39,563 bases of DNA, from UHGV virus genome UHGV-0170560; one strand, written 5' to 3'. Made by a program: the position numbers and the translations under genes. Origin of the DNA: a virus. A model generated the notes under the pieces. That model was not told the DNA's origin, searched no databases, and saw only the letters and a list, made by a program, of their open reading frames with translations. Shown here piece after piece: positions 1,403 through 16,252 of the stretch (the stretch's first letter is position 1; each line of letters opens with the position of its first letter).

Positions 1403-1885
1403 CTATCTTGTCAGGGTGTCATACTGTTTTTCGCAGACTCTTCCGGCTTCGGCTGCCCGGTCAGCATACTCTGCCAGTTGTCTGTTTCTCTCGAGAGATT
1501 TGCTGAGCACGTCGGCAAGCAAAACTCCGGTGTCTGCGGCTGACGTCCCAGCGCCGACAATGGCGTTATACTGCCTGAGCTGCTCACGGATGGCAACGAG
1601 CTGTTTCTGCAACCGGCCAGCGCGAGCGGCAGCATCAAGAGCATCATTGCGCGCCTGGTCGATCCTCTGCTGCGCTTCACGTTCATTGATCGCTTTCTCC
1701 TGTTCGTAGTGCTGACGAACTTTCTCATCTTCGGCTTTGCGCTCTTCCTTCGCCTGCACATACCCGGCGTCGTACTGACGGCTACCGTGCACATTCCAAG
1801 CAACAATTCCGGATATGACCAGAACAGCAAGCATCACCACGATAATTAACTGTTTCCAGTATGCTTTTGCGAATGCCCAGATCAT
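1403..1885 (-). CDS. Rz-like i-spanin (lysis)
   Basis: 160 aa; N-terminal TM helix then charged coiled-coil periplasmic domain; ATGA start/stop overlap with upstream endolysin; embedded lipoprotein ORF in +1 frame. Confidence 0.75.
   Translation of the reverse strand: MIWAFAKAYWKQLIIVVMLAVLVISGIVAWNVHGSRQYDAGYVQAKEERKAEDEKVRQHYEQEKAINEREAQQRIDQARNDALDAAARAGRLQKQLVAIREQLRQYNAIVGAGTSAADTGVLLADVLSKSLERNRQLAEYADRAAEAGRVCEKQYDTLTR
1411..1686 (-). CDS. Rz1-like o-spanin, embedded in Rz in alternate frame
   Basis: Internal Met followed by basic n-region and MMLLMLPLALAGC lipobox, Pro-rich mature part; start ambiguous (alternative ATGs at 1647/1644). Confidence 0.5.
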   Translation of the reverse strand: MNVKRSRGSTRRAMMLLMLPLALAGCRNSSLPSVSSSGSITPLSALGRQPQTPEFCLPTCSANLSRETDNWQSMLTGQPKPEESAKNSMTP

Positions 1886-2511
1886 ACCGCCAGCACCTTA
1901 CTGGCAGTGATGTACCGCGCGCGCCGGTCGTCGATGCCGTTCCGGCCACCATTGATAATCAGAGTTACACGTGCAATATCGCCGGTATACTTCATGCATC
2001 CTTTGCTGGCAAAGAACCACGCTGCGCTACGAGCCGCATATTCGTCATGCGCCAGCAATTCAGGGCTCTCCAGCAGGTCAACCTTCAGACCGTTTCCGCA
2101 ATCACGATAGTTATTCAAACCGGTTATCTGGATAAGCCCGCGCCCACGGTAATTCCAGCCATCGCCGGGAGCATTGTTACCCATGCGTTTGCTGTACACC
2201 AGATTGGCGATCGCTCGCTGGCGCTCGAGTGGCAATGGAGGTTCGCCTGCGCGGCGACCCAATGCGTTGGCCTGTCCCTGAGTGAGACGCCCAGCCCGAA
2301 CGAAGTTAGCCAGTCCGGTGACACTGTAGTTGAAATTCTCCTGCAACCGGATGAAACCACCAGACTCATGCCCGACCTGAGCAATAAACATTGCCTGATC
2401 TTCAGCTTTGCTGATACCAAACTCTTTCATCGCAGAAGTTATATGCGAGAACCAGCGTGCGGCCAGCGCCTCGCTAATACCAGCAGCTCGCTGGAATTGT
2501 TTAATCTCCAT
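1882..2511 (-). CDS. Endolysin, glycoside hydrolase family 19 (chitinase-like lysozyme)
   Basis: 209 aa; motifs QVGHESGGF and NYRGRGLIQITGLNNY match the GH19 catalytic signature; sits between holin and Rz. Confidence 0.85.
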   Translation of the reverse strand: MEIKQFQRAAGISEALAARWFSHITSAMKEFGISKAEDQAMFIAQVGHESGGFIRLQENFNYSVTGLANFVRAGRLTQGQANALGRRAGEPPLPLERQRAIANLVYSKRMGNNAPGDGWNYRGRGLIQITGLNNYRDCGNGLKVDLLESPELLAHDEYAARSAAWFFASKGCMKYTGDIARVTLIINGGRNGIDDRRARYITASKVLAV

Positions 2512-2809
2512 GTTTAGACCTCGTTATTTTGAAAATCTGAACGACGTTACCGCGAGTTTTAAGAACCGCAGCAAACATGACAGCGTTGATAATGACCTCA
2601 GATAAATCCACAGCCATTGGCGTGCGTAACCAGATTGCATAGACGACACGAACAGGAATACTGGCCGCAGCAACAATAAGGAAATAAGCAAGCCACCCTC
2701 CCCATCTTCGGTGTTGTGAACCGTTACGCCGGAATGTGACAACACGAATTGCTATGCCAGTACAAATAAGTGCATTGGTGATAAGCAAAAAATACTCATG
2801 CGTTACCAT
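2501..2809 (-). CDS. Holin-like small membrane protein
   Basis: 102 aa with 2-3 hydrophobic helices and charged C-terminus; overlaps endolysin start by 11 nt. Confidence 0.6.
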   Translation of the reverse strand: MVTHEYFLLITNALICTGIAIRVVTFRRNGSQHRRWGGWLAYFLIVAAASIPVRVVYAIWLRTPMAVDLSEVIINAVMFAAVLKTRGNVVQIFKITRSKHGD

Positions 2810-3155
2810 CGCCTTTTCTCCCCGGAATTAACTCGCGTGGATTATCGGAGCGGTGATAGAGCCAGATGCCAATTCGCACTGCGACGATTGCTGACACGAA
2901 TGCGCCGGCAGAGAAAACAATCCCTTTCTCGAAGGAATCCTGTGTGATGGTAGGGATCAGGCTGGCTATGCCGATAAGAATTGATGCTGCTGGTTTGTAA
3001 AAAAGAAGGCCGCAAAGAAAGCTGAGCATCGACAGGAGTACCCGGCGGCGGATCGGATATTCGACAGCAGAGGTAACAAAAATCACAGCTCCAGCAAGGG
3101 AGCCTAAAGCCACCTCAGGAGGTGCTCCTGCTATAACCGCCGCCAGAGAACTCAT
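2796..3155 (-). CDS. Holin/antiholin-like membrane protein
   Basis: 119 aa, several predicted TM helices, first gene of the lysis cassette; overlaps next gene by 14 nt. Confidence 0.55.
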   Translation of the reverse strand: MSSLAAVIAGAPPEVALGSLAGAVIFVTSAVEYPIRRRVLLSMLSFLCGLLFYKPAASILIGIASLIPTITQDSFEKGIVFSAGAFVSAIVAVRIGIWLYHRSDNPRELIPGRKGDGNA

Positions 3156-3315: not shown

Positions 3316-5901
3316 TTACATCTGGTTATTAATTTTCATTTCAATATTTTTAATGCGCTCAACCAATCCTCGCATAATGAAACGATCAAGTTCTTGATCG
3401 CGGAATTGCCACAAATCTCCTGCTTTCTTAACTAATTTTTTTTCACCAGTATTCACAGGAACAATGAATTTTTCACCATTTTGATCCGTAATTAACTCAT
3501 CTTTAATGACATCTTCATATACATCATCCCATTTGTCATACCCTATAAATCCATAATCTCGCCAGTCCAGGCCCTCATCCTCTAAAACAGCAATAACTGC
3601 CTGAACAGTGGTGCCAGAGTGCAACCTTTTAGAATCATCATCAATCCATGTCCAGAAACCTAGCAGATCAGCCACTTTAATTGCTGCATTAATTTCAGAT
3701 TTGGTGAATCCGCGAATCGGGTCTTTAAGACGACCATCTGAACTTGACTGGGTTCCTCCGGCAAAATAACCAATGTTATATCGTAGTGATGCGCTACCTA
3801 TATTTGAAGTGGCATCAGCTCCAGGAGTGATTCCCCCTGATGTTGCTATTTGCATTGCTGGAGTAGATCCAGACCCATCAGGTCTGAACTGTAATTGACC
3901 TACACTGTTGTATTGTGTTCTCATGAACCAAGATGTAGCATTGCCATTACTGAGCAGGCCAAGAATAGCATCAGAACCAGATGGAGCCGATACAGTGTAC
4001 ATTCCTGTCTTAGTGAGTGACGTCATGGTTTTTCCATCCTTGCTGACCAATAGTCTGTCGGAGCTTGCATCCATCATCACTTTCCATCCTGTAGACCCAT
4101 CAGCAGCATTCTTCGTAAACTGAATTGATGCGTCACCAATATTCCCATCAGAGCCAAGAATTGCAACGGTATAACCGCCTGCTGGGTCTTTACCCACAAC
4201 TCCAAATCTACCGTTTAGCGGATCGCCTGAAACTATTATTTTTACAGGAATCACTCCGGCAAAATTGTCATTAAATATCTGAGAAATATAATTCATGCGC
4301 ATGCCATAAAAACTAACACCTCTCTTTACATTCTCAGAACCAATAAAAGTCGGAATATCTGAATTTGTAATACCATAAGGTGATTGCTCTACCACACCAC
4401 CATAAAACTGGATGTTGGATGCGTGATCAAATTCTAATGCATGATTAGCTCTGGTTCTAAACTCACAGCCATAAAAGTAATGCCCATTTATTTCAGCGGA
4501 TGTCGCATTAACATCACCATCTATATAAAGGCATCGCCATGTGTTTGCGCTAGAGTAATAAGAAACAAGCTCTTCATGAGACATTGATGCGCGACTGTGG
4601 TGATCAAGGGTATAAATACCACATTTATCTACTCTAGTTCCGCTGAGACCATAACTTGCAGGCCCAGTGTTTGAACCAAGAATTGCTAAACCGACTCGCC
4701 CCATAGTTGACCCACCAGTAATGGTATTGTAATCAGGGTCATCGTTTCCTTGCTTTGACTGAATTATTGTACCTGCTTTTGAAAAGTATCCGAATACACA
4801 AACATCCTCCTGAAGATTTCTTGCAGAGTCATCGTAATAAACCCCACACTCATAATCTGCACGTTGGTCTTCATCAGGTTTTGTGTGATTACCGATGGAA
4901 TCATAACAAATCATGTCTTGAACCACGGCAATGCCTTTAAGGACAGATCCACTTGAACCATATTCTGGAGAAAGAACTCTCACGCAATATCGAACACTTG
5001 CGAAATGATCGTCTCTGTTATCTGTAGTAGCTATCTTTGTTCCTGCTCCAGAAAATATAAACGTAGCACCAGGCATATTTTCTTTTCTACCTTCAGCAAG
5101 AAAGAATTTGTCATCATCAGTACCAAATCCAAGAACAGGAGAACCATTACCAATGAATCGAAAATCACCAGGTATTTCTATACCATCAGAGAATCGATAA
5201 ACCCCATCAGGAACAAAAAAAGTTTTCTTTCCAGATGCAAGCAAAGCCTGCCACTGCGTTAAGTTGTCCGTTTTATAGTCACCTTTTAATCCAAAATCGG
5301 TTATGCTGACTGTATCTCGCATCTTATCCTGGAACGTTCGATATATCGCACCAGAACCATACTGAATAAACCAACCAAAACCACCAACAACTCCGGCGAT
5401 TGCAGCATCAACATAATTACGCATTGAGCGATTATTTACAGCATCCTGCTCAAGTGATGGATCTGCAAGGTTAGAAATTCTGTTTTGCTTTGCATCGTAA
5501 TATTTTGCAAGCAAAGATGGTTTCATCAATGCACGTCTGAACCACCCAAAACATTGCTGGATCAGCATCGTCAGGTAGTCAAAAGCATCTTCATGCACTT
5601 CGGGGAAAAATTTTCCCTGATTGCGAAGGTCTGTCTCCTGCACTACATCAAGCACACGATCTATCGTAATTCGCCATCCAGCAGCAAGCGGCGACGGAAG
5701 AACAACAGAACCGCCACTATAAGTGCCCGCCCCAGTTACCGTATAACCGGTATCCAGAACCAATTCTGTTACGTTCCCGTTCAGGTCAGACACCTGAACA
5801 ACCAGGTCGGATTTTTTGAAAATACGGAAGGTATACGGAAATGATGTCGTAGCGCCGTTACCGGTGTATTCGTTGTGGTCAACTTCGGTTGAGACCGTCA
5901 T
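3316..5901 (-). CDS. Tail fibre/tailspike with T7 gp17-like N-terminal adaptor domain and C-terminal intramolecular chaperone (peptidase S74-like) domain
   Basis: 861 aa; N-terminal ~110 aa resemble the T7 gp17 adaptor region by recollection; C-terminal ~140 aa begin with SSDGRLKD (S-D-x-R-x-K autoprocessing motif); central part AT-rich. Confidence 0.8.
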   Translation of the reverse strand: MTVSTEVDHNEYTGNGATTSFPYTFRIFKKSDLVVQVSDLNGNVTELVLDTGYTVTGAGTYSGGSVVLPSPLAAGWRITIDRVLDVVQETDLRNQGKFFPEVHEDAFDYLTMLIQQCFGWFRRALMKPSLLAKYYDAKQNRISNLADPSLEQDAVNNRSMRNYVDAAIAGVVGGFGWFIQYGSGAIYRTFQDKMRDTVSITDFGLKGDYKTDNLTQWQALLASGKKTFFVPDGVYRFSDGIEIPGDFRFIGNGSPVLGFGTDDDKFFLAEGRKENMPGATFIFSGAGTKIATTDNRDDHFASVRYCVRVLSPEYGSSGSVLKGIAVVQDMICYDSIGNHTKPDEDQRADYECGVYYDDSARNLQEDVCVFGYFSKAGTIIQSKQGNDDPDYNTITGGSTMGRVGLAILGSNTGPASYGLSGTRVDKCGIYTLDHHSRASMSHEELVSYYSSANTWRCLYIDGDVNATSAEINGHYFYGCEFRTRANHALEFDHASNIQFYGGVVEQSPYGITNSDIPTFIGSENVKRGVSFYGMRMNYISQIFNDNFAGVIPVKIIVSGDPLNGRFGVVGKDPAGGYTVAILGSDGNIGDASIQFTKNAADGSTGWKVMMDASSDRLLVSKDGKTMTSLTKTGMYTVSAPSGSDAILGLLSNGNATSWFMRTQYNSVGQLQFRPDGSGSTPAMQIATSGGITPGADATSNIGSASLRYNIGYFAGGTQSSSDGRLKDPIRGFTKSEINAAIKVADLLGFWTWIDDDSKRLHSGTTVQAVIAVLEDEGLDWRDYGFIGYDKWDDVYEDVIKDELITDQNGEKFIVPVNTGEKKLVKKAGDLWQFRDQELDRFIMRGLVERIKNIEMKINNQM

Positions 5902-6059
5902 GTTAAATCTCCAGATAGTCGCAGCACCCGTTGCGCCGCATATCTGGTTATTCTATTACCTGAAAAACCACATATGGATAGATAACCCATAAATACGAAA
6001 AGATATTACCTTTCAGGTGATTTGCAAAACGTGCTGGATAGCAAACAAATTATTTGATA

Positions 6060-6354: not shown

Positions 6355-6490
6355 GGTTTGCAATTACCAAGTGGAGTGCTTATATTTACCTTTGAGGTGA
6401 ATTTACATCGCACTCCTCTTATGCCATAGTAATCGGGCACTGGCAAAATCCAGTGCCGGGATTGGCGTCCCGGGTTACTAAGTGGCGCAT

Positions 6491-6514
6491 ACCACGCCAG
6501 ACGTGGTTTTTTTA
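6491..6514 (+). terminator. Rho-independent terminator-like hairpin
   Basis: Stem ACCACG/CGTGGT with loop CCAGA followed by TTTTTTT. Confidence 0.6.
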
Positions 6515-6669
6515 TGCGTTAAGCACAGCTATATCCGAATTATGGTGGGCTGGGCAGGGGTCCGAAAGGACGCCGGTACCACTTAGGCCGGTACGCCAAC
6601 CTTGTCCAGTTCACCACCAGTAATTGGCGTTGCGGTGGTGATTAAAATCACTAAGTGGAGATAACCACC

Positions 6670-7380
6670 ATGGCTAATGCTCAAACTGCCATCTTCAAAT
6701 TTGAATCTGTTAACCCTATCCGTTCCATCATTATCGATGGCCAACCATGGTTTGTAGCCCAAGACGTTTGTAGTGCGCTGCGTATCCAAAACGTCACCCA
6801 AGCACTTGAAAAACTGGATGATGATGAAAGGTCTATGTTCAACATAGGGCATGAACATCGTGCAATTTTTGACAGCCGAGTAAAAGAGATCAACATCATC
6901 TCCGAGTCAGGCCTCTACACACTGATCCTCCGCTGCCGCGACGCAGTGACACCAGGCACTATCCCCTACCGCTTTCGTAAATGGGTTACAGGTGAGGTTC
7001 TTCCTCAGATCCGCCGCACCGGAAGTTACATTAAAAACTCGCTCCCGCAGGAAGAACGCATAAAGATGGTTGCCGACCAGGTAGCCAACGCCACGGCGTC
7101 AGCAGTAATGCAGGCGATGAAGATAGAGAACAAAACCTACAGCGCCCCGCTGCAGCCCGGCTACCGCAGCCTGATTCACTCGCCGTCTGGTGTTCTCGGC
7201 CTGACGGAGAACTCACTGCTGATGAATCTGCTGAACCAGTTACAGGACGACGGGCACGACGTATCGGGCGCGGCGGCGGAGCTGACCACCATGTTCTGCT
7301 ACATCGTCGGTGTGAGTAAATGCCTGCGTGATATCCAGACCCACGCGGAATACATCAACGACAAGGCAGGGTTCTTCTGA
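6670..7380 (+). CDS. Antirepressor (Bro-N domain protein)
   Basis: 236 aa from ATG preceded by GGAG; N-terminal Bro-N hallmarks (WFVAQDVCSAL, ISESGLYTLIL, FRKWVTGEVLPQIRRTGSY). Confidence 0.8.
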   Translation: MANAQTAIFKFESVNPIRSIIIDGQPWFVAQDVCSALRIQNVTQALEKLDDDERSMFNIGHEHRAIFDSRVKEINIISESGLYTLILRCRDAVTPGTIPYRFRKWVTGEVLPQIRRTGSYIKNSLPQEERIKMVADQVANATASAVMQAMKIENKTYSAPLQPGYRSLIHSPSGVLGLTENSLLMNLLNQLQDDGHDVSGAAAELTTMFCYIVGVSKCLRDIQTHAEYINDKAGFF

Positions 7381-7596: not shown

Positions 7597-8136
7597 GTGT
7601 TAAGTGAAGAAATGCAATTTGCCATGGCTGTGGCTCAAATCGTAAGTGCAGTCGCGGTTTCGCTTGGCTTGTTCATAGCTATCGCTACTATTATTTATAA
7701 TGTAAATACAGCGAGAAAAGTACACACTTCAGTATTCCTTGGTGAAAGCAGGTTTGATGTAGATTATAAGAAAGGCCTATCTACTATGCGCCGCATTCAC
7801 GAATCGAACAAATCATTCCGCTCTTATATGTATCCAAGCAATGGGCAGGCTGATCTTACGGATGAAGAAAAGATAGAGAAGAGAGAAATAATTTACTGTC
7901 TAGGTTTCTACGAACGCATGGCTGTGAGCGTGAAGCGGAAAACTTATGATGAGACCATGATTAAGGAAGTATTTTACAGCTCCGTTGTAAATAACTATCA
8001 GATTGCGCTACCTCTTATACAAGCTATTAGAGAAAAAGAAAACATAAACACATATTTTAAAGAATATGAATGGTTGGCAACACGATGGAAGGATTGTCCA
8101 TTGAAGGATAAATCCCCATGGTACAAGTTTTGGTAA
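7597..8136 (+). CDS. Membrane-anchored accessory protein; candidate superinfection-exclusion/defence protein
   Basis: 179 aa, GTG start with GGAG RBS; N-terminal TM helix; markedly AT-rich relative to the structural genes; position matches the P22 immI/sieA neighbourhood next to the tailspike. Confidence 0.55.
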   Translation: MLSEEMQFAMAVAQIVSAVAVSLGLFIAIATIIYNVNTARKVHTSVFLGESRFDVDYKKGLSTMRRIHESNKSFRSYMYPSNGQADLTDEEKIEKREIIYCLGFYERMAVSVKRKTYDETMIKEVFYSSVVNNYQIALPLIQAIREKENINTYFKEYEWLATRWKDCPLKDKSPWYKFW

Positions 8137-8158
8137 GCCCGCAGCGCGGGCTTTTTTG
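8137..8158 (+). terminator. Rho-independent terminator
   Basis: Stem GCCCGC/GCGGGC with loop AGC followed by TTTTTT. Confidence 0.75.
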
Positions 8159-8229
8159 TGGACGAAACAAAAGTCAGTGCTACACTCATTGACGCCACAT
8201 TGAGGTGGCTTATAGATGGAAATTTCACA

Positions 8230-8391
8230 ATGAAAAAAGCATTTGCTGCACTGTTCGTTTTGTTGTCTCTGGTAGCTTCAACTCAGGCCTTTGCCGGTCG
8301 TTGTCAGCACGACAGCGATACTGCCGCTGACGGCTCCCGCTGCGGTGGGCGTTCTGCGGATTCCCGCCCGGGCGGCGGTGGCATTCGTTAA
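8230..8391 (+). CDS. Small secreted peptide, function unknown
   Basis: 53 aa from internal ATG; clean Sec signal MKKAFAALFVLLSLVASTQAFA; two Cys in the ~31-aa mature part. Confidence 0.45.
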   Translation: MKKAFAALFVLLSLVASTQAFAGRCQHDSDTAADGSRCGGRSADSRPGGGGIR

Positions 8392-8413
8392 AAACAAGGC
8401 CGCGAAAGCGGCC
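8391..8413 (-). terminator. Rho-independent terminator for the minus-strand virion operon
   Basis: Stem GGCCGC/GCGGCC with loop GAAA; on the minus strand it is followed by a T-run. Confidence 0.6.
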
Positions 8414-8422
8414 TGTGACATG

Positions 8423-8719
8423 TCACGTTCCTTTTCTGAATGATAGCCGTTCGAAAAATGATGACATTCCACCGCAGACAATAGCAAAGATGATCCCACC
8501 AAAGAAGAGAAGGCCAGCCTGCCACCACTCCCACCGCCATACATCCACAGCACCAACCATACCAACAATCGCTCCAACAAATGGAATATAGCTCACGATG
8601 AAAGCAATGGGGGCTGCAATTATCCAGTGCAATCCCCACCATGATTCAAGCCCAGCCATAATTGCTGCCAACTGAAAAAGGCCAACGACGATATAAACAA
8701 TGAATCCTATCGCTTGCAT
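8423..8719 (-). CDS. Small integral membrane protein
   Basis: 98 aa, 3 hydrophobic helices, GGTG RBS; last gene of the minus-strand virion operon. Confidence 0.55.
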   Translation of the reverse strand: MQAIGFIVYIVVGLFQLAAIMAGLESWWGLHWIIAAPIAFIVSYIPFVGAIVGMVGAVDVWRWEWWQAGLLFFGGIIFAIVCGGMSSFFERLSFRKGT

Positions 8720-8731
8720 GTAGTCACCTAT

Positions 8732-8905
8732 TTACCCAGTAAAAATCAGAGGCCTCCCCTCAATAAGGCTTGCAACAAGAACTATTCCCTGCACAACAAA
8801 GATGAACCAGCAAATAGCTTGAGTCTGAGGGTTAAGAAAATATTTGTAGCGGTCAATAAATAACAACCCACCAGAAATTATCACACTCAAAATAATTAAA
8901 AACAC
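8732..8905 (-). CDS. Possible small membrane protein (57 aa, GTG start)
   Basis: Below the track cutoff; my own translation gives VFLIILSVIISGGLLFIDRYKYFLNPQTQAICWFIFVVQGIVLVASLIEGRPLIFTG with AGGAAG RBS upstream. Confidence 0.3.
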   Translation of the reverse strand: MFLIILSVIISGGLLFIDRYKYFLNPQTQAICWFIFVVQGIVLVASLIEGRPLIFTG

Positions 8906-8914
8906 AACACTTCC

Positions 8915-11389
8915 TTATTGCGGAGTGACATCCTGAGGTCGCCACCAGTATGTCTGATTAAACTCTTTCTTCGAACGTTGCTCCATTTTACGCAAATAGC
9001 CTGGTGAAAAATACTCCTGCATCTGGTTAAAGATCATATGATCGAGAGCCGCCTTTAAGTACCAGAGATTCGCACCTGGCATCAAACCTTTCCCCAGCTT
9101 CACCAGATCACCACCAGTCTGCTCACTCTTCCCTTCCACAGCATTTAACGGTATGCCCTGAGCAATCTTCACTACGTCATCAACCAGACCAGCTACCGGG
9201 CCAAGCATCGACGCCAGCGCGCCGCTTCCGTACCTAGTGTGATCTGACAATAAAAAGTCACCGTAAAGGCCAAGGCCACCACCTTTCAGTAGAGCACCAA
9301 GCCAGAATTTTGCGGCACCTTCTCCTGTCATCTCTCGAGGATTACGACCAGACGCAAGGTCGTTAAGTTGCTGCGACAAAGCGCCAAGAATGGTCGTACT
9401 GGCAATAAACGTCGCAATATATGCCGCACGCCCACCAGCAGACGGCATACTCATAGCGCGTGACCAGTGACGCATAACAACCGAGATAGGGAACGATTTA
9501 AACAGGAAAACACTTCTCGTTAATTCACCTTTCCATGTTCCACGCTGAATACCAGAACCGGTTATCAGTTGCTCACGTGCTCCCGGTGTAATAATAGCCA
9601 TATCAACTTCTTCAGTTACGGCACCGAGCAGTTTACGCATTGCCTCAAATTTCACTCGTTCAGGCTCACCAAGATGTTTAACTGCTGAATCAGGGATACG
9701 CATAATGCTTTCCGGTGTCAGCATCGTATTATTACCGTTCCCCCAGTCCTCCTGTTGCGCCAGCTTCCATACGCTCCAGTCTGTGTCAGTAATCCCTTTG
9801 CTTTTCAGGATACGAAAATCAGAGTCATCGAGGCTACGAAGGTCTGGTGTCCGTGACACTACTTCTCCCAGGCTTCCCATCATGGTTACGCCATAGGCGC
9901 GCTTGTGCGCATCTGACCATGCTGTAAGCCCACTGGCACGCATTACCGCCGTTGCCGCCCAACGAGACACAGACGGCCCCATATTATCCATCGCCCAGCG
10001 GTTAACGCTGCCAAGTAGAGATTCCATCGCCAGGCCAGCGCGGCGCGCCCGCGCAAGCTCAGTACGGTTCGTTGGGTCCATAGCTTCAAGCTGGTTGCGA
10101 AATAACTGGTTCATTGGAAGGTTGGTAACCTTCGCAGACAGATACATGGTTCCAAGATCAGAGAACGATGACAGCAACGCGGATCCGAGTCTGCTGGCAA
10201 CCAGCCAGTTGCGGATATTGTCAGACCATCGCGCGATGTGCGGATTCGCTACAGGCTGTGTTTTTCCGGAAATAAAGTTGTACAGATTCTCTGTGTTGTT
10301 CGCCAGCCGCTCGACTTTACCGGTTTTACTCGGGTTAGCTGTTGCCGTTTCTGCCTTAACCTGATCAAGAAGGGAGCGGAAAACATGATCGGGGTTTGGG
10401 CCATATGTTTCCACCAGCGCAATATCTTTACTGATACCTTCCAGGTGACCGACCATGATTTCCCATAGAGAGCGATCGCCATAAAGTTGCTGATATTGCA
10501 GATAGGAATCTGCATCTTTGAAATGTATCTGTCGTGATGCATTACCACGGTTAGCACGTACGCCGGAAATTCGCATTCCGGTATCAGTAAGCTTATTCAG
10601 CCCACCAGTAGCGATCGTGTTATAAGCCTCTCCAAGAAATGCAGACAACTCGGCATCGTTCATCAGTTGTCCATCGGCTCGGGTATAATATTTGCGATCC
10701 AGCTTACCTATAACATCGCTAACCCATTTATCTTTTGATACCGCCCCAACCTTTTCCATAGAATGATGTTGAGGGATCCCCCAGTTTTCGAGATAGCCAA
10801 TGTCCCCACCAGCATCATTAAACCGGCGGCGCAGTAGATCTGTCACTTCTCTCCACGCCTTAGCACCTTTTCTTGCTTTAGCATTGCCAGTATTTTGCCC
10901 TCGCATTTCATATACCAGGTCACGCACGCCCGCTTCATCTTCAAACAGGCCAAAAAAGCGAGGATCAACTGCTTCAAATGCCTCCTGCAATTGACTCAAT
11001 GCATAATCACGAGTGGCTTTTGTTCTGGATTCAACAGAGAGGAAATTCGATTTACCGTCTGCATTAAAAGCAATAGTACGGTTAAGAGCGCCAAGTTTCC
11101 CATCAGCCCCTTGATAGCTATTGATAAATTTATCCAATCTCTGACGTGCGGCTATAGTGAGGGCCACACGACGTTTCTTTAATGCCGCTTCTCGCTGTAA
11201 TTCTTCAGATGCCAATTGTGCTGCACGATACAACCGTTCTGATTCGGAAAGTTGTCGCCACGACATCGGGTCATCACGAGCAATGGAGCGCATATTTCGA
11301 TAAATGCGGTCTTCAATGTTCTGTATTTCTCGCGCCGTTAACGTGCGCTGCGCCGCCTGCTGGACCGCTTGTATACATTCCTGTCTCAT
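8915..11389 (-). CDS. Internal virion/ejection protein (T7 gp16-like position)
   Basis: 824 aa; translationally coupled within the long minus-strand virion operon. Confidence 0.65.
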   Translation of the reverse strand: MRQECIQAVQQAAQRTLTAREIQNIEDRIYRNMRSIARDDPMSWRQLSESERLYRAAQLASEELQREAALKKRRVALTIAARQRLDKFINSYQGADGKLGALNRTIAFNADGKSNFLSVESRTKATRDYALSQLQEAFEAVDPRFFGLFEDEAGVRDLVYEMRGQNTGNAKARKGAKAWREVTDLLRRRFNDAGGDIGYLENWGIPQHHSMEKVGAVSKDKWVSDVIGKLDRKYYTRADGQLMNDAELSAFLGEAYNTIATGGLNKLTDTGMRISGVRANRGNASRQIHFKDADSYLQYQQLYGDRSLWEIMVGHLEGISKDIALVETYGPNPDHVFRSLLDQVKAETATANPSKTGKVERLANNTENLYNFISGKTQPVANPHIARWSDNIRNWLVASRLGSALLSSFSDLGTMYLSAKVTNLPMNQLFRNQLEAMDPTNRTELARARRAGLAMESLLGSVNRWAMDNMGPSVSRWAATAVMRASGLTAWSDAHKRAYGVTMMGSLGEVVSRTPDLRSLDDSDFRILKSKGITDTDWSVWKLAQQEDWGNGNNTMLTPESIMRIPDSAVKHLGEPERVKFEAMRKLLGAVTEEVDMAIITPGAREQLITGSGIQRGTWKGELTRSVFLFKSFPISVVMRHWSRAMSMPSAGGRAAYIATFIASTTILGALSQQLNDLASGRNPREMTGEGAAKFWLGALLKGGGLGLYGDFLLSDHTRYGSGALASMLGPVAGLVDDVVKIAQGIPLNAVEGKSEQTGGDLVKLGKGLMPGANLWYLKAALDHMIFNQMQEYFSPGYLRKMEQRSKKEFNQTYWWRPQDVTPQ

Positions 11390-13197: not shown

Positions 13198-15707
13198 TGC
13201 GGAATATCTCCGGAGAATCTCTGACGCTTCTGTGTCAGATCAAGAACAACAGGAGAACCATCATCCTTCAGCAGATATCCAGTCCCAAGTTTTACCAAGT
13301 ACTGACTATCGCCGTAACTTTGCAAACCATACTGACCAGGCGGTGTTTTTATCCCTGTGCCGACAACTTGTTCATTCCAAGCCTGATTAACCTGCTTATC
13401 GAATTGCTCTGCAGACATTCCCCACGGCAAAAGAACATTCCCCATTCCGTTATAGTCATGCACGCCACCTGTAGCTACGTTAACAGCCTGTTTCCAGATA
13501 TCATTGTCAATTTCGCCTGATACCACGCCTTTTTTCGCCATCACACCAGCGTAATAGTCCTTTGCGATCTCGTATGCCATTGATGCCCCCTGAGCATCAC
13601 CAGCAAATGCATCCTTCACCATGTCAGAAAACTCAAGGCGAAGATCAGCATCTTTAGGCATCGGAATACCTTTCGCATCATCAGTACCTTTACGAGCCGC
13701 CGCGCCAGCAAGAATTGTCTGCGCAGCGGTTTCAGGTGACACGGAAACATCAGGATTAAACCAGTTTTTTTCTGCCAAAATACCACCAGGTTTATCCATC
13801 AGTATCCCGGCAACGGCAGCAGATGGAGCGTTGGCGCTGATCTGCTGTAGTGCTGACATATACACCTGCCCACCACCAGTGCTCTGCCTGATGGTATCGA
13901 GATATGCTGCCTGTTGGGAAACGGGCGCATCACGAAAGAAAACACCGATCTGATTGGCCTCGTCTTTGGAAAAGAAAGTCAGTGGAGTGCCATATGACTT
14001 GGCAAGGTCACTGACCTGAGCGGCACGCAAGGCAACGCTCTGTCCAAAGTTATCCTTATTGCTCATGTCGATAGGCTTTGCCTGTCCGGCGGCAAGAGAG
14101 AACTGCACAGGATCCGATTGCCGCTGCTTTATCACCTGATTTGCAGCCGAAACAACGTTGTCATAAAGAGCTGCGCGTGCCGCATACCCCTCCCCTGTCT
14201 CACCAGTATCCGGGCGTAATTGCTCAACATATGCTGTAATGCTGCTTGTCGGCATGTTGCGGAAAGAGCCTATATACTGTCCGGCGATCTGCGTATTTCT
14301 GAACTCGGTATATCGCAGGTTTCCTTCTCTGACGCCATAAGCTGCAATAAAATCAGCCTCACCAGGTGGATTAGGAAATTCAACGCCACGCATATACGCA
14401 GCCGTCGCATCGCGAACCTGGCTGTCAATCATCGTTTTATATTCAGCCTGCTGCTGCCGACGCAGTTGATCCGCCTGTCGCATAAAACTTGCCTGCGCCT
14501 CAGGAGAGGCCGCATCGAATGCTGCATTACCGGTATAGCGTTTGGTGTTGGTTGGAATTGTTGATAAACCAAGTGCTGCACTGACACCAGCAGTTAACTG
14601 CTGATCACTGTATGGCTGGCTACCGTTCTCATGATGGATAATGGCTGCACAAAGCGCCTTCAGGGTATCAGGATTTGATGCATCGAGAGGCTCATCAGCA
14701 GAAACGCCAAGTTGTTCGCATACTGCTTTGATATACGACATAGTGTCATTTTTATCAGTAGGCGGTGCCCAGCGATTAATTATCTCGCTGACTGTATCAA
14801 TACCCTGCCGCTGATACGACATCAGGTTCCGCCCTAATGCACGAATCCCGTGTTCAGGTGTTTCGAATTTAGCAAATCGACCATCATCACCGGTCTGGCC
14901 TACCCACGGATTAGTTTTGCTGTATTCGAGATTTCCTGGGTTATTGTTGCGTATGCCACGGGCACGCTCGGAAGAATCACTATCTGCTACAGCACGGCGA
15001 GCTCCAGCAGAAGTATCACTTAACTCGCCATTACTTTGGATGAATGCGGTCGCATTGTTTGCCGACCACTGGGACAATGCGGCATCAGCAACCTTCTCTT
15101 TAAACTCGATTTTCTTGGCCTGGATTTGCTCGTCGCTCCAGCCATGCGCAATGCCGTAATCCTCAATTTGCTGGAAAGTTTGCTTATTAGCCAATACATA
15201 TGCGGCGTTGTCGCCATACAATGCTGCGGCATTTTTACCATTGTTCAGCAGCGTAGCCTGAAACTGGCCTTCTTCGTAGGCATTTATTTGCCCTATCTCG
15301 TGCCGCCCGGCCTGCGTAGTGAACTGAATGCGCTGCTGCTGCGCCTGCTGCATGAAAGCATTACGAGCCTGTTCATCCGGCAGCGACATAGCCAGTTGTT
15401 CGATCTGAGCATCAAACTGCTGCGTATACTCCTGACCTTTTCCAATAGCATTTTTCCCTTTCAGGTTAAGCAATCCTGTTTCAGGATTATTCAGCAGATC
15501 GCTGCTTATCTGACTGAGGTTAAGAGATGCCTCCTGAGCCAGAGCGATATTGGCACGCTGTTTTGCCTGACCAAAAACATCAATTGCCTCTGCCCCTGCC
15601 CGAACAAAAGCATCACCAATACCTGGCTGAGAAAACGCCTGCAAGCCTGCTGACTGAACTCCACGGCTCTCAACCTGACGTCCGGATACTGTTGGTACGA
15701 CTGGCAT
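13194..15707 (-). CDS. Internal virion/ejection protein (T7 gp15-like position)
   Basis: 837 aa from ATG overlapping the upstream stop (TAATG) with GGAGG RBS; the track ORF extends 25 codons further upstream. Confidence 0.65.
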   Translation of the reverse strand: MPVVPTVSGRQVESRGVQSAGLQAFSQPGIGDAFVRAGAEAIDVFGQAKQRANIALAQEASLNLSQISSDLLNNPETGLLNLKGKNAIGKGQEYTQQFDAQIEQLAMSLPDEQARNAFMQQAQQQRIQFTTQAGRHEIGQINAYEEGQFQATLLNNGKNAAALYGDNAAYVLANKQTFQQIEDYGIAHGWSDEQIQAKKIEFKEKVADAALSQWSANNATAFIQSNGELSDTSAGARRAVADSDSSERARGIRNNNPGNLEYSKTNPWVGQTGDDGRFAKFETPEHGIRALGRNLMSYQRQGIDTVSEIINRWAPPTDKNDTMSYIKAVCEQLGVSADEPLDASNPDTLKALCAAIIHHENGSQPYSDQQLTAGVSAALGLSTIPTNTKRYTGNAAFDAASPEAQASFMRQADQLRRQQQAEYKTMIDSQVRDATAAYMRGVEFPNPPGEADFIAAYGVREGNLRYTEFRNTQIAGQYIGSFRNMPTSSITAYVEQLRPDTGETGEGYAARAALYDNVVSAANQVIKQRQSDPVQFSLAAGQAKPIDMSNKDNFGQSVALRAAQVSDLAKSYGTPLTFFSKDEANQIGVFFRDAPVSQQAAYLDTIRQSTGGGQVYMSALQQISANAPSAAVAGILMDKPGGILAEKNWFNPDVSVSPETAAQTILAGAAARKGTDDAKGIPMPKDADLRLEFSDMVKDAFAGDAQGASMAYEIAKDYYAGVMAKKGVVSGEIDNDIWKQAVNVATGGVHDYNGMGNVLLPWGMSAEQFDKQVNQAWNEQVVGTGIKTPPGQYGLQSYGDSQYLVKLGTGYLLKDDGSPVVLDLTQKRQRFSGDIPQ

Positions 15708-16252
15708 TATAATCCTCCGGGTAATCTGGTTCCTGCTGCTGCCCCGATTGGCGCAGGAGTGCTTTGAGTAAACGGACTCCACGTCCCACCAAACATCTGG
15801 TACGCACCGTATGCCTTCAGAGGCGCAGTGAGCAATGTTGTTGCTGCTCCCACATTCCCCTGTTTACGGGCTGAACTGGCTTCTGCTTTATAGTTGGCAG
15901 CCTGAACCTGATAACCGTAAGCCTCGCGTTGCGCGTTATTCACCGTCGTCAGCGAATCAAGAGCGCCAAACTGGGCAGTGTCGCCAAATATATCCAGCGC
16001 GTTACCTGTAGATAAATCAGCGCCGGCAGCCCCCATTGTCGCCGCCTGTGTACCAAGCCGCTGTCGGGTCTCTCTGCGCCGTTGCTCAGCTTCAGCGTTA
16101 CCTCTGTTTATTGCATCATTTGCCTGAGCAGTGGCTATATCTGCGTTCGCTTCTGCAACCTTCGAGGCATACTTTCCCTGTTGGTACTGGGTGTATGCCT
16201 GAATGCCACTCATGGCGAGCATTGCGCCACCAGCAATAACCGGATCGCACAT
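15707..16252 (-). CDS. Internal virion protein (T7 gp14-like position)
   Basis: 181 aa, Ala/Gln-rich; start overlaps upstream stop. Confidence 0.6.
   Translation of the reverse strand: MCDPVIAGGAMLAMSGIQAYTQYQQGKYASKVAEANADIATAQANDAINRGNAEAEQRRRETRQRLGTQAATMGAAGADLSTGNALDIFGDTAQFGALDSLTTVNNAQREAYGYQVQAANYKAEASSARKQGNVGAATTLLTAPLKAYGAYQMFGGTWSPFTQSTPAPIGAAAGTRLPGGL

What the first reader, a model, noticed from the sequence alone, without database searches (positions are those of the whole stretch)
8230..8905. Cluster of three tiny secreted or membrane proteins at the end of the virion operon
A 53-aa signal-peptide protein with two Cys (8230..8391, plus strand) converges on two minus-strand membrane proteins (8423..8719, 98 aa; 8732..8905, 57 aa, GTG start) that terminate the internal-virion-protein operon. 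These could be injection accessory factors or exclusion proteins. The 57-aa ORF is below the track cutoff and rests on my hand translation.
Basis: seen in the sequence. Interest (0 to 1): 0.4.

Follow-up and report, generated by a model that had tools for sequence, protein, structure and literature searches.

The report
Swappable small envelope-protein genes in prophage
Three tiny genes at the end of a phage's DNA-injection operon are real and conserved, but they are interchangeable accessory cargo encoding cell-envelope proteins of untested function, most plausibly blocking entry of rival phages, not parts of the virus particle.

Summary
All three ORFs sit at the stated coordinates and are under purifying selection against a Klebsiella relative (dN/dS 0.19, 0.026, 0.05). 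The window is an epsilon15/phiV10-like (Uetakevirus) E. coli phage.

The three genes are not one unit. The 57-aa two-helix and 98-aa three-helix membrane proteins are the last genes of the ejection-protein operon. The 53-aa gene is a separate, self-contained moron. It has a conserved upstream terminator, a conserved sigma-70-like promoter, a 5' hairpin, a cleavable signal peptide and a 31-residue two-cysteine mature peptide.

In 111 related loci the slot after the gp17-like gene is hypervariable, although the C-terminal 200 residues of gp17 are about 90-100% identical in the enterobacterial phage loci. It holds unrelated two-helix mini-proteins, lipoproteins, secreted proteins or the 98-aa gene. 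This argues against essential injection factors.

The 98-aa protein belongs to a large undescribed membrane-domain family (737 cluster representatives, no Pfam model). It also occurs beside an integrase and on a plasmid-like contig.

The position parallels P22 sieA, but no homology to SieA exists and no lysogenic promoter was found for the 57/98 pair. Exclusion is therefore inferred, not shown. Verdict: new members of a known kind, of moderate interest.

The parts
8915..11389 (-). Context: 824-aa gp17-like internal virion (ejection) protein, the last large gene of the ejectosome gene string.
   Evidence: It matches phrog_684 'virion structural protein' at E=0. It is homologous to phiV10p20 and epsilon15 gp17. 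A T7_gp14-family gene lies upstream at 15707..16252.
8910..8916 (-). Shine-Dalgarno AAGGAAG for the 57-aa gene, overlapping the gp17 TAA stop codon (translational coupling).
   Evidence: Read from the sequence. It is conserved as AAGGAGG or AAGGGGGA in relatives with GTG, TTG or ATG starts.
8732..8905 (-). F0: 57-aa two-helix membrane mini-protein with a GTG start and a conserved basic loop DRYKYFL. GC is 37%, against 49% for the operon.
   Evidence: Sequence and ORF. dN/dS is 0.19. The family has 13 clusters across Enterobacteriaceae. GC. It has no Pfam, NCBIfam or PADLOC hit and only a non-significant PHROG match (phrog_17645, E=0.064). It is unannotated in the phage records and in ETEC H10407.
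8423..8719 (-). F1: 98-aa three-helix membrane protein, predicted N-out/C-in, with a basic C-tail. Conserved motifs are GLxQLAAI and WxWEWWQAGLLFFG. SD AGGTGA lies at 8724-8729.
   Evidence: dN/dS is 0.026. It matches phrog_3075. The AlphaFold2 model has pLDDT 90 with helices 2-27, 31-41/45-58 and 64-96. The family has 737 cluster representatives and no Pfam model. Charge distribution.
8397..8414 (.). Shared hairpin terminator between the convergent units (GGCCGCTTTCGCGGCC). It has a T-run on the minus strand and an A-run on the plus strand. It is the conserved junction of cassette exchange.
   Evidence: Terminator scan. RNA fold is -16.5 kcal/mol, z = -2.9. It is retained in phiV10, where the flanking genes differ.
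8230..8391 (+). S53: 53-aa secreted pre-peptide. The signal peptide is residues 1-22 (cleavage AFA|G). The mature peptide is 31 residues with C25 and C38 and an almost invariant DTAADGSRCGGRSADSRPGG.
   Evidence: ORF. It matches phrog_14503 'membrane associated protein', category moron. The family has 57 clusters, named 'transmembrane anchored protein' by NCBI. Alignment A3. dN/dS is 0.05.
8159..8186 (+). Candidate sigma-70 promoter of S53: TGGACG (8159-8164), 16-nt spacer, TACACT (8181-8186). It is conserved as TGGAYG-N16/17-TACAMT in divergent homologs. A window-only alternative is TTGACG (8189-8194)-N16-TATAGA (8211-8216).
   Evidence: Alignment of 61 distinct upstream regions. Neither candidate was returned by the strict consensus scan; the alternative ends in A, which that scan rejects by rule.
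8194..8209 (+). Conserved 5-bp hairpin GCCAC-N6-GTGGC in the predicted 5' UTR of S53.
   Evidence: 98.5% of cells are paired across 13 distinct sequences. There is one compensatory A-U to G-C change (L104) and G-U wobbles. Support is modest.
8135..8157 (+). Upstream terminator (AAGCCCGCAGCGCGGGCTT + T-run) that insulates S53 from the antirepressor/cargo operon and marks the left edge of the S53 cassette.
   Evidence: Terminator scan. The same hairpin follows at least 10 different upstream cargo genes.

Best explanation
The region is the meeting point of two independent accessory ('moron'-type) gene slots in a temperate epsilon15/phiV10-like podovirus.

Slot 1 (minus strand). The 57-aa hairpin protein (F0) and the 98-aa three-helix protein (F1) are appended to the last ejection-protein gene. 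They are translationally coupled to it and are transcribed at least with the late operon up to the terminator at 8397-8414.

Slot 2 (plus strand). The 53-aa gene is a self-contained cassette of terminator, promoter, 5' hairpin, ORF and terminator. Its product is exported by Sec and cleaved to a 31-residue periplasmic peptide that probably carries one disulfide.

All occupants of slot 1 in relatives are cell-envelope proteins, and they are exchanged by recombination while the ejection proteins stay nearly constant. The genes are therefore dispensable for virion function.

The most likely role is inferred, not shown. The proteins would sit in the inner membrane or periplasm of the infected or lysogenic cell. 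There they would interfere with DNA delivery by incoming related podoviruses, as P22 SieA does from the equivalent genome position. Alternatively they would alter the envelope in some other way that benefits the host.

Shown: gene reality, topology class, operon structure, cassette mobility, independence of the three genes.

Inferred: the exclusion mechanism and expression in lysogens.
For: - Purifying selection acts on all three ORFs.
- SD sequences and start codons are conserved.
- In 111 loci with a gp17-like gene, slot 1 holds varied contents (counts): a 46-aa two-helix protein of the phiV10 p21 type (28 loci); F0>F1 (41); unrelated lipoproteins F7 (11) and F9 (8); F0 plus other two-helix proteins (F24 in 3, the epsilon15 gp18 type in 1); secreted proteins (F48, F51) and a further lipoprotein (F53). 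The gp17 C-terminal 200 residues are about 90-100% identical across the enterobacterial phage loci.
- F1 at 93-99% identity also sits behind a gp17-like gene that is only 27% identical. There a secreted protein precedes it instead of F0.
- F1 homologs also occur directly after divergent gp17-like genes in Cronobacter and Salmonella prophages. They occur next to an integrase away from virion genes and after RepA on a MobA/T4CP plasmid-like contig.
- F0 GC is 37% against 49% for the operon.
- S53 shows conserved insulation and promoter elements with at least 10 different upstream genes. It is present or absent independently of slot 1. It also occurs in other phage types.
- Position parallels P22, where sieA lies between the last ejection gene and the immI/tailspike region. 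[quoted passage not shown]
Against: - There is no sequence or profile similarity to SieA (hhalign probability below 1%), and no PADLOC hit.
- No sigma-70-like promoter was found upstream of F0 or F1 on the minus strand between 8720 and 9600.
- There is no excess synonymous conservation at the gp17 3' end that would betray an embedded promoter. Expression from the prophage is therefore unproven, and the pair may be made only late in infection.
- No occupant family of the slot has a known function, so guilt by association has no anchor.
- In the phiv142-3 lysogen the homologous orf11 and orf12 were not among the serum-induced genes, and no phenotype is reported for them (PMC7724020).
- Some F1 homologs lie beside a PG_binding_1/CHAP protein, which would also fit a lysis-related role.
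Confidence: 0.5

Rival explanations
1. Host-directed lysogenic-conversion factors. The envelope proteins and the secreted peptide would change host physiology (serum or stress resistance, envelope homeostasis, interbacterial interactions) and would not act on incoming phages.
For: The neighbouring accessory gene orf10 of phiv142-3 is reported to raise serum resistance, and the prophage as a whole improves APEC survival (PMC7724020). The F1 domain is widespread in bacteria and is fused to cellular membrane domains DUF805, RDD and MORN. S53 has its own constitutive-looking promoter.
Against: No phenotype has been assigned to these three genes, and orf11/orf12 are not serum-induced. The tight positional link of slot 1 to ejection-protein genes across gp17 lineages of 25-100% identity is not explained by a purely host-directed role.
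Confidence: 0.2
2. Injection or assembly accessory factors. F0 and F1 would help the ejection proteins assemble, be packaged, or insert into the inner membrane of the next host.
For: They are co-transcribed and translationally coupled with the gp17-like gene. F1 is repeatedly the gene after gp17-like genes in three divergent lineages.
Against: Phage loci whose gp17 C-terminal 200 residues are about 90-100% identical lack both genes. They carry unrelated lipoproteins, secreted proteins or a different 46-aa protein instead. phiV10 and epsilon15 are viable without F0 or F1. F1 homologs occur away from virion genes and on a plasmid-like contig. Integral membrane proteins made in the producing cell are unlikely virion cargo.
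Confidence: 0.1
3. Lysis-related membrane proteins (an extra holin or antiholin). F1 has a class-I-holin-like topology of three helices, N-out/C-in, with a basic tail. F0 has a two-helix, pinholin-like shape.
For: There is a weak Pfam hit of F1 to Phage_holin_5_2 (E=0.027, 15 bits). Some distant F1 homologs follow a PG_binding_1/CHAP protein.
Against: The hit is far below the gathering score of 29.2 bits. Only 4 of 27 family members show it, alongside equally weak hits to unrelated membrane families. The window already has a complete lysis cassette at 1403-3155: Phage_holin_8, Phage_holin_3_7, a GH19 endolysin and an Rz-like spanin. Sister phages fill the slot with lipoproteins and secreted proteins that cannot be holins. 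No structural match to holins was found.
Confidence: 0.07
4. Chance ORFs or decaying remnants with no function.
For: The ORFs are very short, one has a non-ATG start, and the 57-aa ORF is left out by most annotators.
Against: dN/dS is 0.03-0.19 with third-position-biased change. The reading frames are intact across genera. SD sequences and start positions are conserved.
Confidence: 0.02

Closest known systems
P22 SieA superinfection-exclusion protein (Leavitt et al. 2024, PMC10883804)
   Same: It is a temperate podovirus gene placed between the last ejection-protein gene and the antirepressor (immI)/tailspike region. It is an inner-membrane protein with three predicted helices. It is present in only some members of the phage group and exists as several unrelated sequence types.
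   Different: SieA is 162-164 aa, is transcribed convergently from its own promoter, and carries the motif FxRYPxEAxxFNK. F0 and F1 show no homology to it. They are co-oriented with the ejection genes and have no detected promoter of their own. No exclusion phenotype is known for them.
Morons of lambdoid phages, e.g. the HK97 gp15 exclusion moron, lambda bor/lom, and cor of phi80/N15 (from established literature, not tested here)
   Same: These are small envelope proteins inserted into late operons. They are present or absent between otherwise near-identical phages, are often bounded by a promoter and terminator, and often have atypical GC content. S53 fits this anatomy fully. F0 fits on GC and polymorphism.
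   Different: There is no sequence relationship. The F0/F1 pair lacks a demonstrable promoter. S53 is a soluble two-cysteine peptide and is not a lipoprotein (no lipobox).
epsilon15 gp18 (64 aa) and phiV10 p21 (46 aa, 'putative integral membrane protein')
   Same: They occupy the same position immediately after the gp17 homolog and have the same two-helix hairpin with a short basic loop.
   Different: They are not detectably homologous to F0 (hhalign probability below 1%). They are analogous occupants of the same slot. Their function is equally unknown (phrog_7892 and phrog_29212 are 'unknown function').
T4 Imm and conjugative entry-exclusion proteins (TraS, Eex) (from established literature, not tested here)
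   Same: They are small polytopic inner-membrane proteins that stop incoming DNA at the cytoplasmic membrane. One F1 homolog lies on a MobA/T4CP/RepA plasmid-like contig.
   Different: No sequence or structural similarity was detected. The analogy rests on size, location and carriage by mobile elements only.

Membership tests
P22 SieA family | Sequence homology to SieA types A-C, including the cytoplasmic motif FxRYPxEAxxFNK | tested here: not met
   hhalign of the F1 family (A2) and the F0 family (A1) against P22 SieA gives probabilities of 0.2% and 0.1%. The motif is absent from both sequences by inspection.
P22 SieA family | Gene located between the last ejection-protein gene and the tailspike gene of a temperate podovirus | tested here: met
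   The window order is gp17-like gene, F0, F1, terminator, S53 / cargo / Ant, tailspike. The P22 order is gene 16, sieA, immI, gene 9.
P22 SieA family | Expressed from the prophage by its own promoter | tested here: inconclusive
   The consensus scan found no promoter on the minus strand between 8720 and 9600. There is no synonymous-site conservation peak at the gp17 3' end. Weak promoters cannot be excluded without transcript data.
P22 SieA family | Blocks DNA injection of related phages, with escape mutations mapping to ejection proteins | not testable with these tools
   This requires plating, potassium-efflux or DNA-entry assays and selection of escape mutants.
Moron (autonomous accessory cassette in a phage late or regulatory region) | Own promoter and terminator flanking a single gene | tested here: met
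   This applies to S53 only. It has an upstream terminator at 8135-8157, conserved -35/-10-like boxes at 8159-8186 and a downstream terminator at 8397-8414. For F0/F1 the terminator is present but no promoter was found.
Moron (autonomous accessory cassette in a phage late or regulatory region) | Presence/absence or replacement polymorphism between otherwise near-identical phages | tested here: met
   Slot 1 shows 18 distinct gene arrangements among 111 loci, including loci whose gp17 C-terminal 200 residues are about 90-100% identical. S53 is present in some loci and absent in others for each main slot-1 type tallied.
Moron (autonomous accessory cassette in a phage late or regulatory region) | Base composition differing from flanking phage genes | tested here: met
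   F0 is 37.4% GC and S53 58.0%, against 49-51% for the ejection genes. F1 at 46.8% does not differ.
Holins (Pfam Phage_holin_5_2 / Hol44) | Score above the Pfam gathering threshold | tested here: not met
   The score is 15.1 bits against a 29.2-bit cut-off. Only 4 of 27 family members show it.
Holins (Pfam Phage_holin_5_2 / Hol44) | Gene adjacent to the endolysin and spanin genes | tested here: not met
   The complete lysis cassette lies at 1403-3155, about 5 kb away.
Virion or ejection proteins of Uetakevirus | Conserved co-occurrence with the other virion genes in all members | tested here: not met
   F0 and F1 are absent from phiV10, epsilon15 and about half of the surveyed loci.
Lipoprotein exclusion factors (Cor, Llp type) | Lipobox [LVI][ASTVI][GAS]C at the end of the signal peptide | tested here: not met
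   S53 has ...QAFAGRC. Cys25 is two residues past the AXA site, so there is no lipobox. Alternative slot occupants F7, F9 and F53 do have lipoboxes.

The most novel reading that the evidence does not exclude
The slot directly behind the ejectosome genes of epsilon15-like and related temperate podoviruses is a dedicated diversification hotspot for envelope-located factors that jam the trans-envelope DNA conduit of incoming phages. At least ten unrelated, wholly uncharacterised families rotate through it (two-helix mini-proteins, the F1 three-helix domain, lipoproteins, secreted proteins). On this reading the F1 domain is a general blocker of DNA entry at the inner membrane. It has 737 cluster representatives, no Pfam model, and also occurs beside integrases and on a relaxase/T4CP plasmid-like contig. 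It would be shared by phages and conjugative elements.
Probability: 0.22. Interest if true: 0.65.

Novelty: new member of a known kind. Interest (0 to 1): 0.35.

Why it matters
If the slot encodes exclusion factors, it would supply a panel of very small, genetically tractable proteins for probing how podovirus ejection proteins cross the periplasm and inner membrane. That step is still poorly understood beyond T7 and P22. It would also help explain the host-range limits of O-antigen-specific phages considered for biocontrol of E. coli, Salmonella and Klebsiella.

In practical terms, the work shows that a conserved 57-aa gene is missing from most annotations. It defines an undescribed three-helix membrane-domain family. 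It also documents a widely travelling secreted-peptide moron present in about 3% of complete E. coli genomes as part of this cluster.

Tried and rejected
- Pfam, NCBIfam and PADLOC gave no significant hit for any of the three proteins. PHROGs gave only 'unknown function' families, apart from the moron label on S53.
- The holin idea was rejected.
- SieA homology was rejected.
- Homology between F0 and the two-helix proteins of phiV10 and epsilon15 was rejected.
- The promoter search for the F0/F1 pair was negative by both the consensus scan and the synonymous-site conservation profile.
- The literature holds nothing on 'transmembrane anchored protein', on the RefSeq protein ids, or on exclusion in Uetakevirus.
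- The phiv142-3 transcription table lists only serum-induced genes and does not include orf11 or orf12.
- The epsilon15 genome paper (PMC2698709) could not be read.
- Rfam found no RNA family inside 8140-8920.
- Repeat searches found only chance-level matches.
- The N-terminally extended 77-aa reading of the 53-aa gene (GTG at 8158) was rejected because the extension is not conserved in Klebsiella.
Full report
**Identity of the window.** The 2-kb region around the finding matches Uetakevirus (epsilon15/phiV10-like) E. coli phages at about 98% identity. Examples are phiv142-3 (MN187550) and HEMP4. Pfam and PHROG scans show the expected layout.
- A complete lysis cassette lies at 1403-3155: Phage_holin_8, Phage_holin_3_7, a GH19 endolysin and an Rz-like DUF2514 protein.
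- A tailspike gene lies at 3316-5901.
- A T7_gp14-family internal virion protein lies at 15707-16252. It is followed by 862-, 600- and 824-aa proteins. The last matches phrog_684 'virion structural protein' and is the homolog of epsilon15 gp17 and phiV10 p20.

**The observation.** The ORF listing returns the three ORFs at exactly the stated coordinates. On the minus strand the gp17-like gene stops at TAA (8917-8915). An AAGGAAG Shine-Dalgarno sequence overlaps that stop, and the 57-aa ORF starts at GTG 8905. Its TAA stop is followed 12 nt later by the ATG of the 98-aa ORF, behind AGGTGA. The 98-aa ORF ends 9 nt before a GC-rich hairpin plus T-run at 8414-8397. The plus-strand 53-aa ORF ends 6 nt before the same hairpin.

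**Are the genes real?** Klebsiella phage vB_KpnP_BUCT711 has all three ORFs in the same arrangement at only 74-82% nucleotide identity.

| ORF | Differences at codon positions 1/2/3 | dN/dS |
|---|---|---|
| 57 aa | 9/6/17 | 0.19 |
| 98 aa | 7/1/45 | 0.026 |
| 53 aa | 7/5/27 | 0.05 |

The 57-aa start is GTG in 36 loci, TTG in 7 and ATG in 2. It is always at the same position, behind an SD that overlaps the gp17 stop. Searches of the protein collection give 13 clusters for the 57-aa protein across Escherichia, Citrobacter, Klebsiella, Salmonella and Enterobacter. They give 52 close clusters for the 98-aa protein and 57 for the 53-aa protein. The 785-bp cluster is intact in 144 of 5426 complete E. 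coli genomes, including ETEC H10407. The 57-aa gene is unannotated in phiv142-3, BUCT711 and H10407. In phiv142-3 the 98-aa gene is annotated from an upstream start that gives 118 aa.

**The 57-aa protein (F0).** It is a two-helix hairpin. The short loop DRYKYFL is invariant in the family and holds the only basic residues apart from R51. By the positive-inside rule the loop would be cytoplasmic.

**The 98-aa protein (F1).** It has three hydrophobic stretches. AlphaFold2 with the family alignment gives a confident model (pLDDT 90) with helices 2-27, 31-41/45-58 (kinked at SYIP) and 64-96.
- The only net-positive segment is the C-tail ERLSFRKGT. The Trp-rich acidic loop is DVWRWEWWQ. Together these predict an N-out/C-in topology.
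- Invariant residues are G12, Q15, A18, G28, P45, G52, G55, A56, W62, A67, L70 and F71.
- A profile search of 1.84 billion cluster representatives finds 737 relatives (311 at E<=1e-10). Most are about 100 aa. Some are fused to DUF805, RDD or MORN domains or repeated in tandem. No Pfam model covers the family.
- Among 50,697 phage records the family appears only in these few Uetakeviruses.
- Fold searches give nothing meaningful.

**The 53-aa protein (S53).** It has a classical Sec signal peptide (MKK, hydrophobic core, AFA|G). The mature 31-residue peptide has an almost invariant sequence, CQHD.DTAADGSRCGGRSADSRPGG, while the signal peptide itself varies. There is no lipobox.

**The three genes are not one unit.** I collected 111 loci containing a gp17-like gene from IMG/VR, GTDB genomes and earlier look-ups, and classified what follows the gp17 stop. 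Counts below are totals.
- A 46-aa two-helix protein of the phiV10 p21 type (F2): 28 loci.
- F0 followed by F1: 41 loci.
- A 120-137-aa lipoprotein (F7): 11 loci.
- A 126-aa lipoprotein (F9): 8 loci.
- F0 with a 92-aa two-helix protein (F24): 3 loci. F0 with an epsilon15 gp18-type protein (F25): 1 locus.
- F1 alone, directly after gp17-like genes only 25-29% identical in their C-terminal part (Cronobacter, Salmonella): 6 loci.
- Secreted proteins (F48, F51) and a further lipoprotein (F53): single loci.

In the enterobacterial phage loci the C-terminal 200 residues of gp17 are about 90-100% identical. The cassette is therefore exchanged behind a nearly constant ejection gene.

A second set of 80 viral loci found with the F1 profile shows F1 at 93-99% identity behind a gp17-like gene only 27% identical. 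There it is preceded by a 123-aa secreted protein instead of F0. Other first-position partners are 103- and 112-aa two-helix proteins, a 175-aa secreted protein and the F51-type secreted protein. Every occupant has transmembrane helices, a signal peptide or a lipobox. None has an annotated function.

The exchange junctions are the gp17 stop/SD on one side and the terminator on the other. phiV10 shares both with the window but has a different gene between them. S53 is present in some loci and absent in others for each main slot-1 type.

**S53 is an autonomous moron.** An alignment of 61 distinct upstream regions shows the following.
- The same terminator hairpin, AAGCCCGC...GCGGGC plus a T-run, follows at least ten different upstream genes. 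These include DUF4760 (this window), a YafO toxin (TL-2011b) and a DUF2335 protein (BUCT711).
- Conserved -35/-10-like boxes, TGGAYG-N16/17-TACAMT, lie at 8159-8186 in the window.
- A conserved 5-bp hairpin, GCCAC-N5/6-GTGGY, lies at 8194-8209. It is paired in 98.5% of cells, with one compensatory A-U to G-C change. This is modest support.

S53 homologs also sit alone on the opposite strand inside a tail operon of a Pectobacterium prophage. In another E. coli phage type they follow a lysis cassette plus a RelB/YafQ pair.

**Expression of F0/F1.** No sigma-70-type promoter was found on the minus strand between 8720 and 9600. Synonymous-site conservation along gp17 shows no distinctive peak at the 3' end: 0.53 against other peaks of 0.52 and a mean near 0.43. 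The safest statement is that F0 and F1 are made with the late operon. Prophage expression is not excluded but is unsupported. Elsewhere F1 homologs are clearly autonomous. One lies 185 bp downstream of a divergent gene, next to an integrase, at a prophage end. Another follows RepA on a contig with a MobA relaxase and a T4SS coupling protein.

**Mechanism.** Replacement of the cassette behind a nearly constant ejection protein, together with the viability of phiV10 and epsilon15 without F0 or F1, argues against essential injection or assembly factors.

The holin idea fails on three counts.
- The Pfam score is 15 bits against a 29-bit cut-off, and only 4 of 27 family members show the hit.
- A complete lysis cassette lies elsewhere in the window.
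- Sister phages fill the slot with lipoproteins and secreted proteins.

What remains is an accessory envelope function. The closest precedent is P22. There sieA lies between the last ejection gene (16) and the immI/tailspike region. [quoted passage not shown] Escape mutations map to ejection proteins gp16 and gp20. The gene is present in only a third of P22-like phages, in three mutually dissimilar types (PMC10883804).

The window has the same architecture, including an immI-like antirepressor module (see below). However, F0 and F1 are not SieA homologs, and no defence-system model matches. I therefore rate 'envelope accessory cassettes, most likely acting on DNA entry of superinfecting phages' at about 0.5. 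A host-directed conversion role rates about 0.2, injection accessory about 0.1, lysis about 0.07 and non-functional about 0.02.

**Novelty and interest.** Morons and small exclusion proteins in late operons are a well-known kind. These particular families are uncharacterised, and the F1 domain is undescribed. The systematic rotation of at least ten envelope-protein families through the slot behind the ejectosome genes is a useful, testable observation but is not surprising to a phage biologist. Interest is 0.35.

**Side observations.** Rfam finds isrK (6437-6513), C4 antisense RNA (6538-6621) and its a1/b1 targets (6424-6476) just upstream of the Bro-N antirepressor gene (6655-7380). This is a P1/P7-type c4-ant immunity module. 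The cargo position between the antirepressor gene and S53 holds DUF4760 here (38.5% GC). In relatives it holds a YafO toxin, DUF2335 or HicA/DUF1902. A RelB/YafQ pair precedes S53 in a different phage type. phiV10 retains only the last ~20 nt of S53 next to the terminator, which looks like a deletion scar.

Noticed in passing
window 6424-6621 (+): Rfam hits lie immediately upstream of the Bro-N antirepressor gene (6655-7380). isrK (67.7 bits) and C4 antisense RNA (66 bits) are above their gathering scores. The c4 a1/b1 target element (44.1 bits against 46.7) is just below. Together they form a P1/P7-type immI (c4-ant) control module in a Uetakevirus.
   Followed up: partly
window 7597-8136 (+): A DUF4760 protein (179 aa, 38.5% GC) occupies a variable cargo position between the antirepressor gene and the 53-aa gene. 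Relatives carry a YafO toxin, DUF2335 or HicA/DUF1902 there, and a RelB/YafQ pair precedes the 53-aa gene in a different phage type. Where the 53-aa gene is present, the cargo gene ends at the same terminator hairpin. This looks like a toxin-antitoxin or defence-like hotspot, but there is no PADLOC hit.
   Followed up: partly
L001 (phiV10) about 6001-6050: phiV10 lacks the 53-aa gene but keeps its last ~20 nt (ggcggaggcggcattcgttaa) fused to the shared terminator. This looks like a deletion or recombination scar at the cassette junction.
   Followed up: partly
window 8732-8905; L002 6288-6644; L120: The conserved 57-aa gene is not annotated in phiv142-3, BUCT711 or RefSeq ETEC H10407. In phiv142-3 the 98-aa gene is annotated from an upstream start as 118 aa, overlapping the 57-aa gene.
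   Followed up: yes
window 8194-8209 (+): A conserved 5-bp hairpin, GCCAC-N6-GTGGC, lies in the predicted 5' UTR of the 53-aa gene. It shows one compensatory change (GCCGC/GCGGC in L104) and G-U wobbles. It could be a stabilising RNA 5' stem-loop or a palindromic operator.
   Followed up: partly
L244/L245 3875-5344; L257 31-5264: Distant homologs of the 98-aa protein lie between a PG_binding_1/CHAP protein and a DUF6804 membrane protein. Another lies directly after RepA on a contig with a MobA relaxase and a T4SS coupling protein. The domain therefore travels on several kinds of mobile element.
   Followed up: partly
P0131, P0141, P0146, P0148, P0244 (one search hits): The 98-aa domain occurs in tandem (four matched stretches in a 427-aa protein). 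It is also fused to DUF805, RDD and MORN-repeat regions. No Pfam family covers it.
   Followed up: partly
L079, L096, L106, L101, L094, L160, L195 (slot after the gp17-like gene): Alternative occupants of the slot include three unrelated lipoproteins (lipoboxes LISAC, LVGC, LSGC) and several signal-peptide proteins. All are PHROG 'unknown function' or have no hit.
   Followed up: partly
L002 5692-5850 (phiv142-3 orf10): In phiv142-3 the gene just upstream of the 53-aa gene (orf10, 52 aa) is reported to raise serum resistance and K1 capsule gene expression in APEC (PMC7724020). That gene is not annotated at the corresponding position in this window, where DUF4760 sits instead.
   Followed up: no
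L263 4001-4168; L264 4001-4162: Homologs of the 53-aa gene occur in unrelated phage backgrounds. One is a lone opposite-strand gene between a MuF_C protein gene and tail genes in Pectobacterium. Another follows a lysis cassette plus RelB/YafQ in E. coli.
   Followed up: partly
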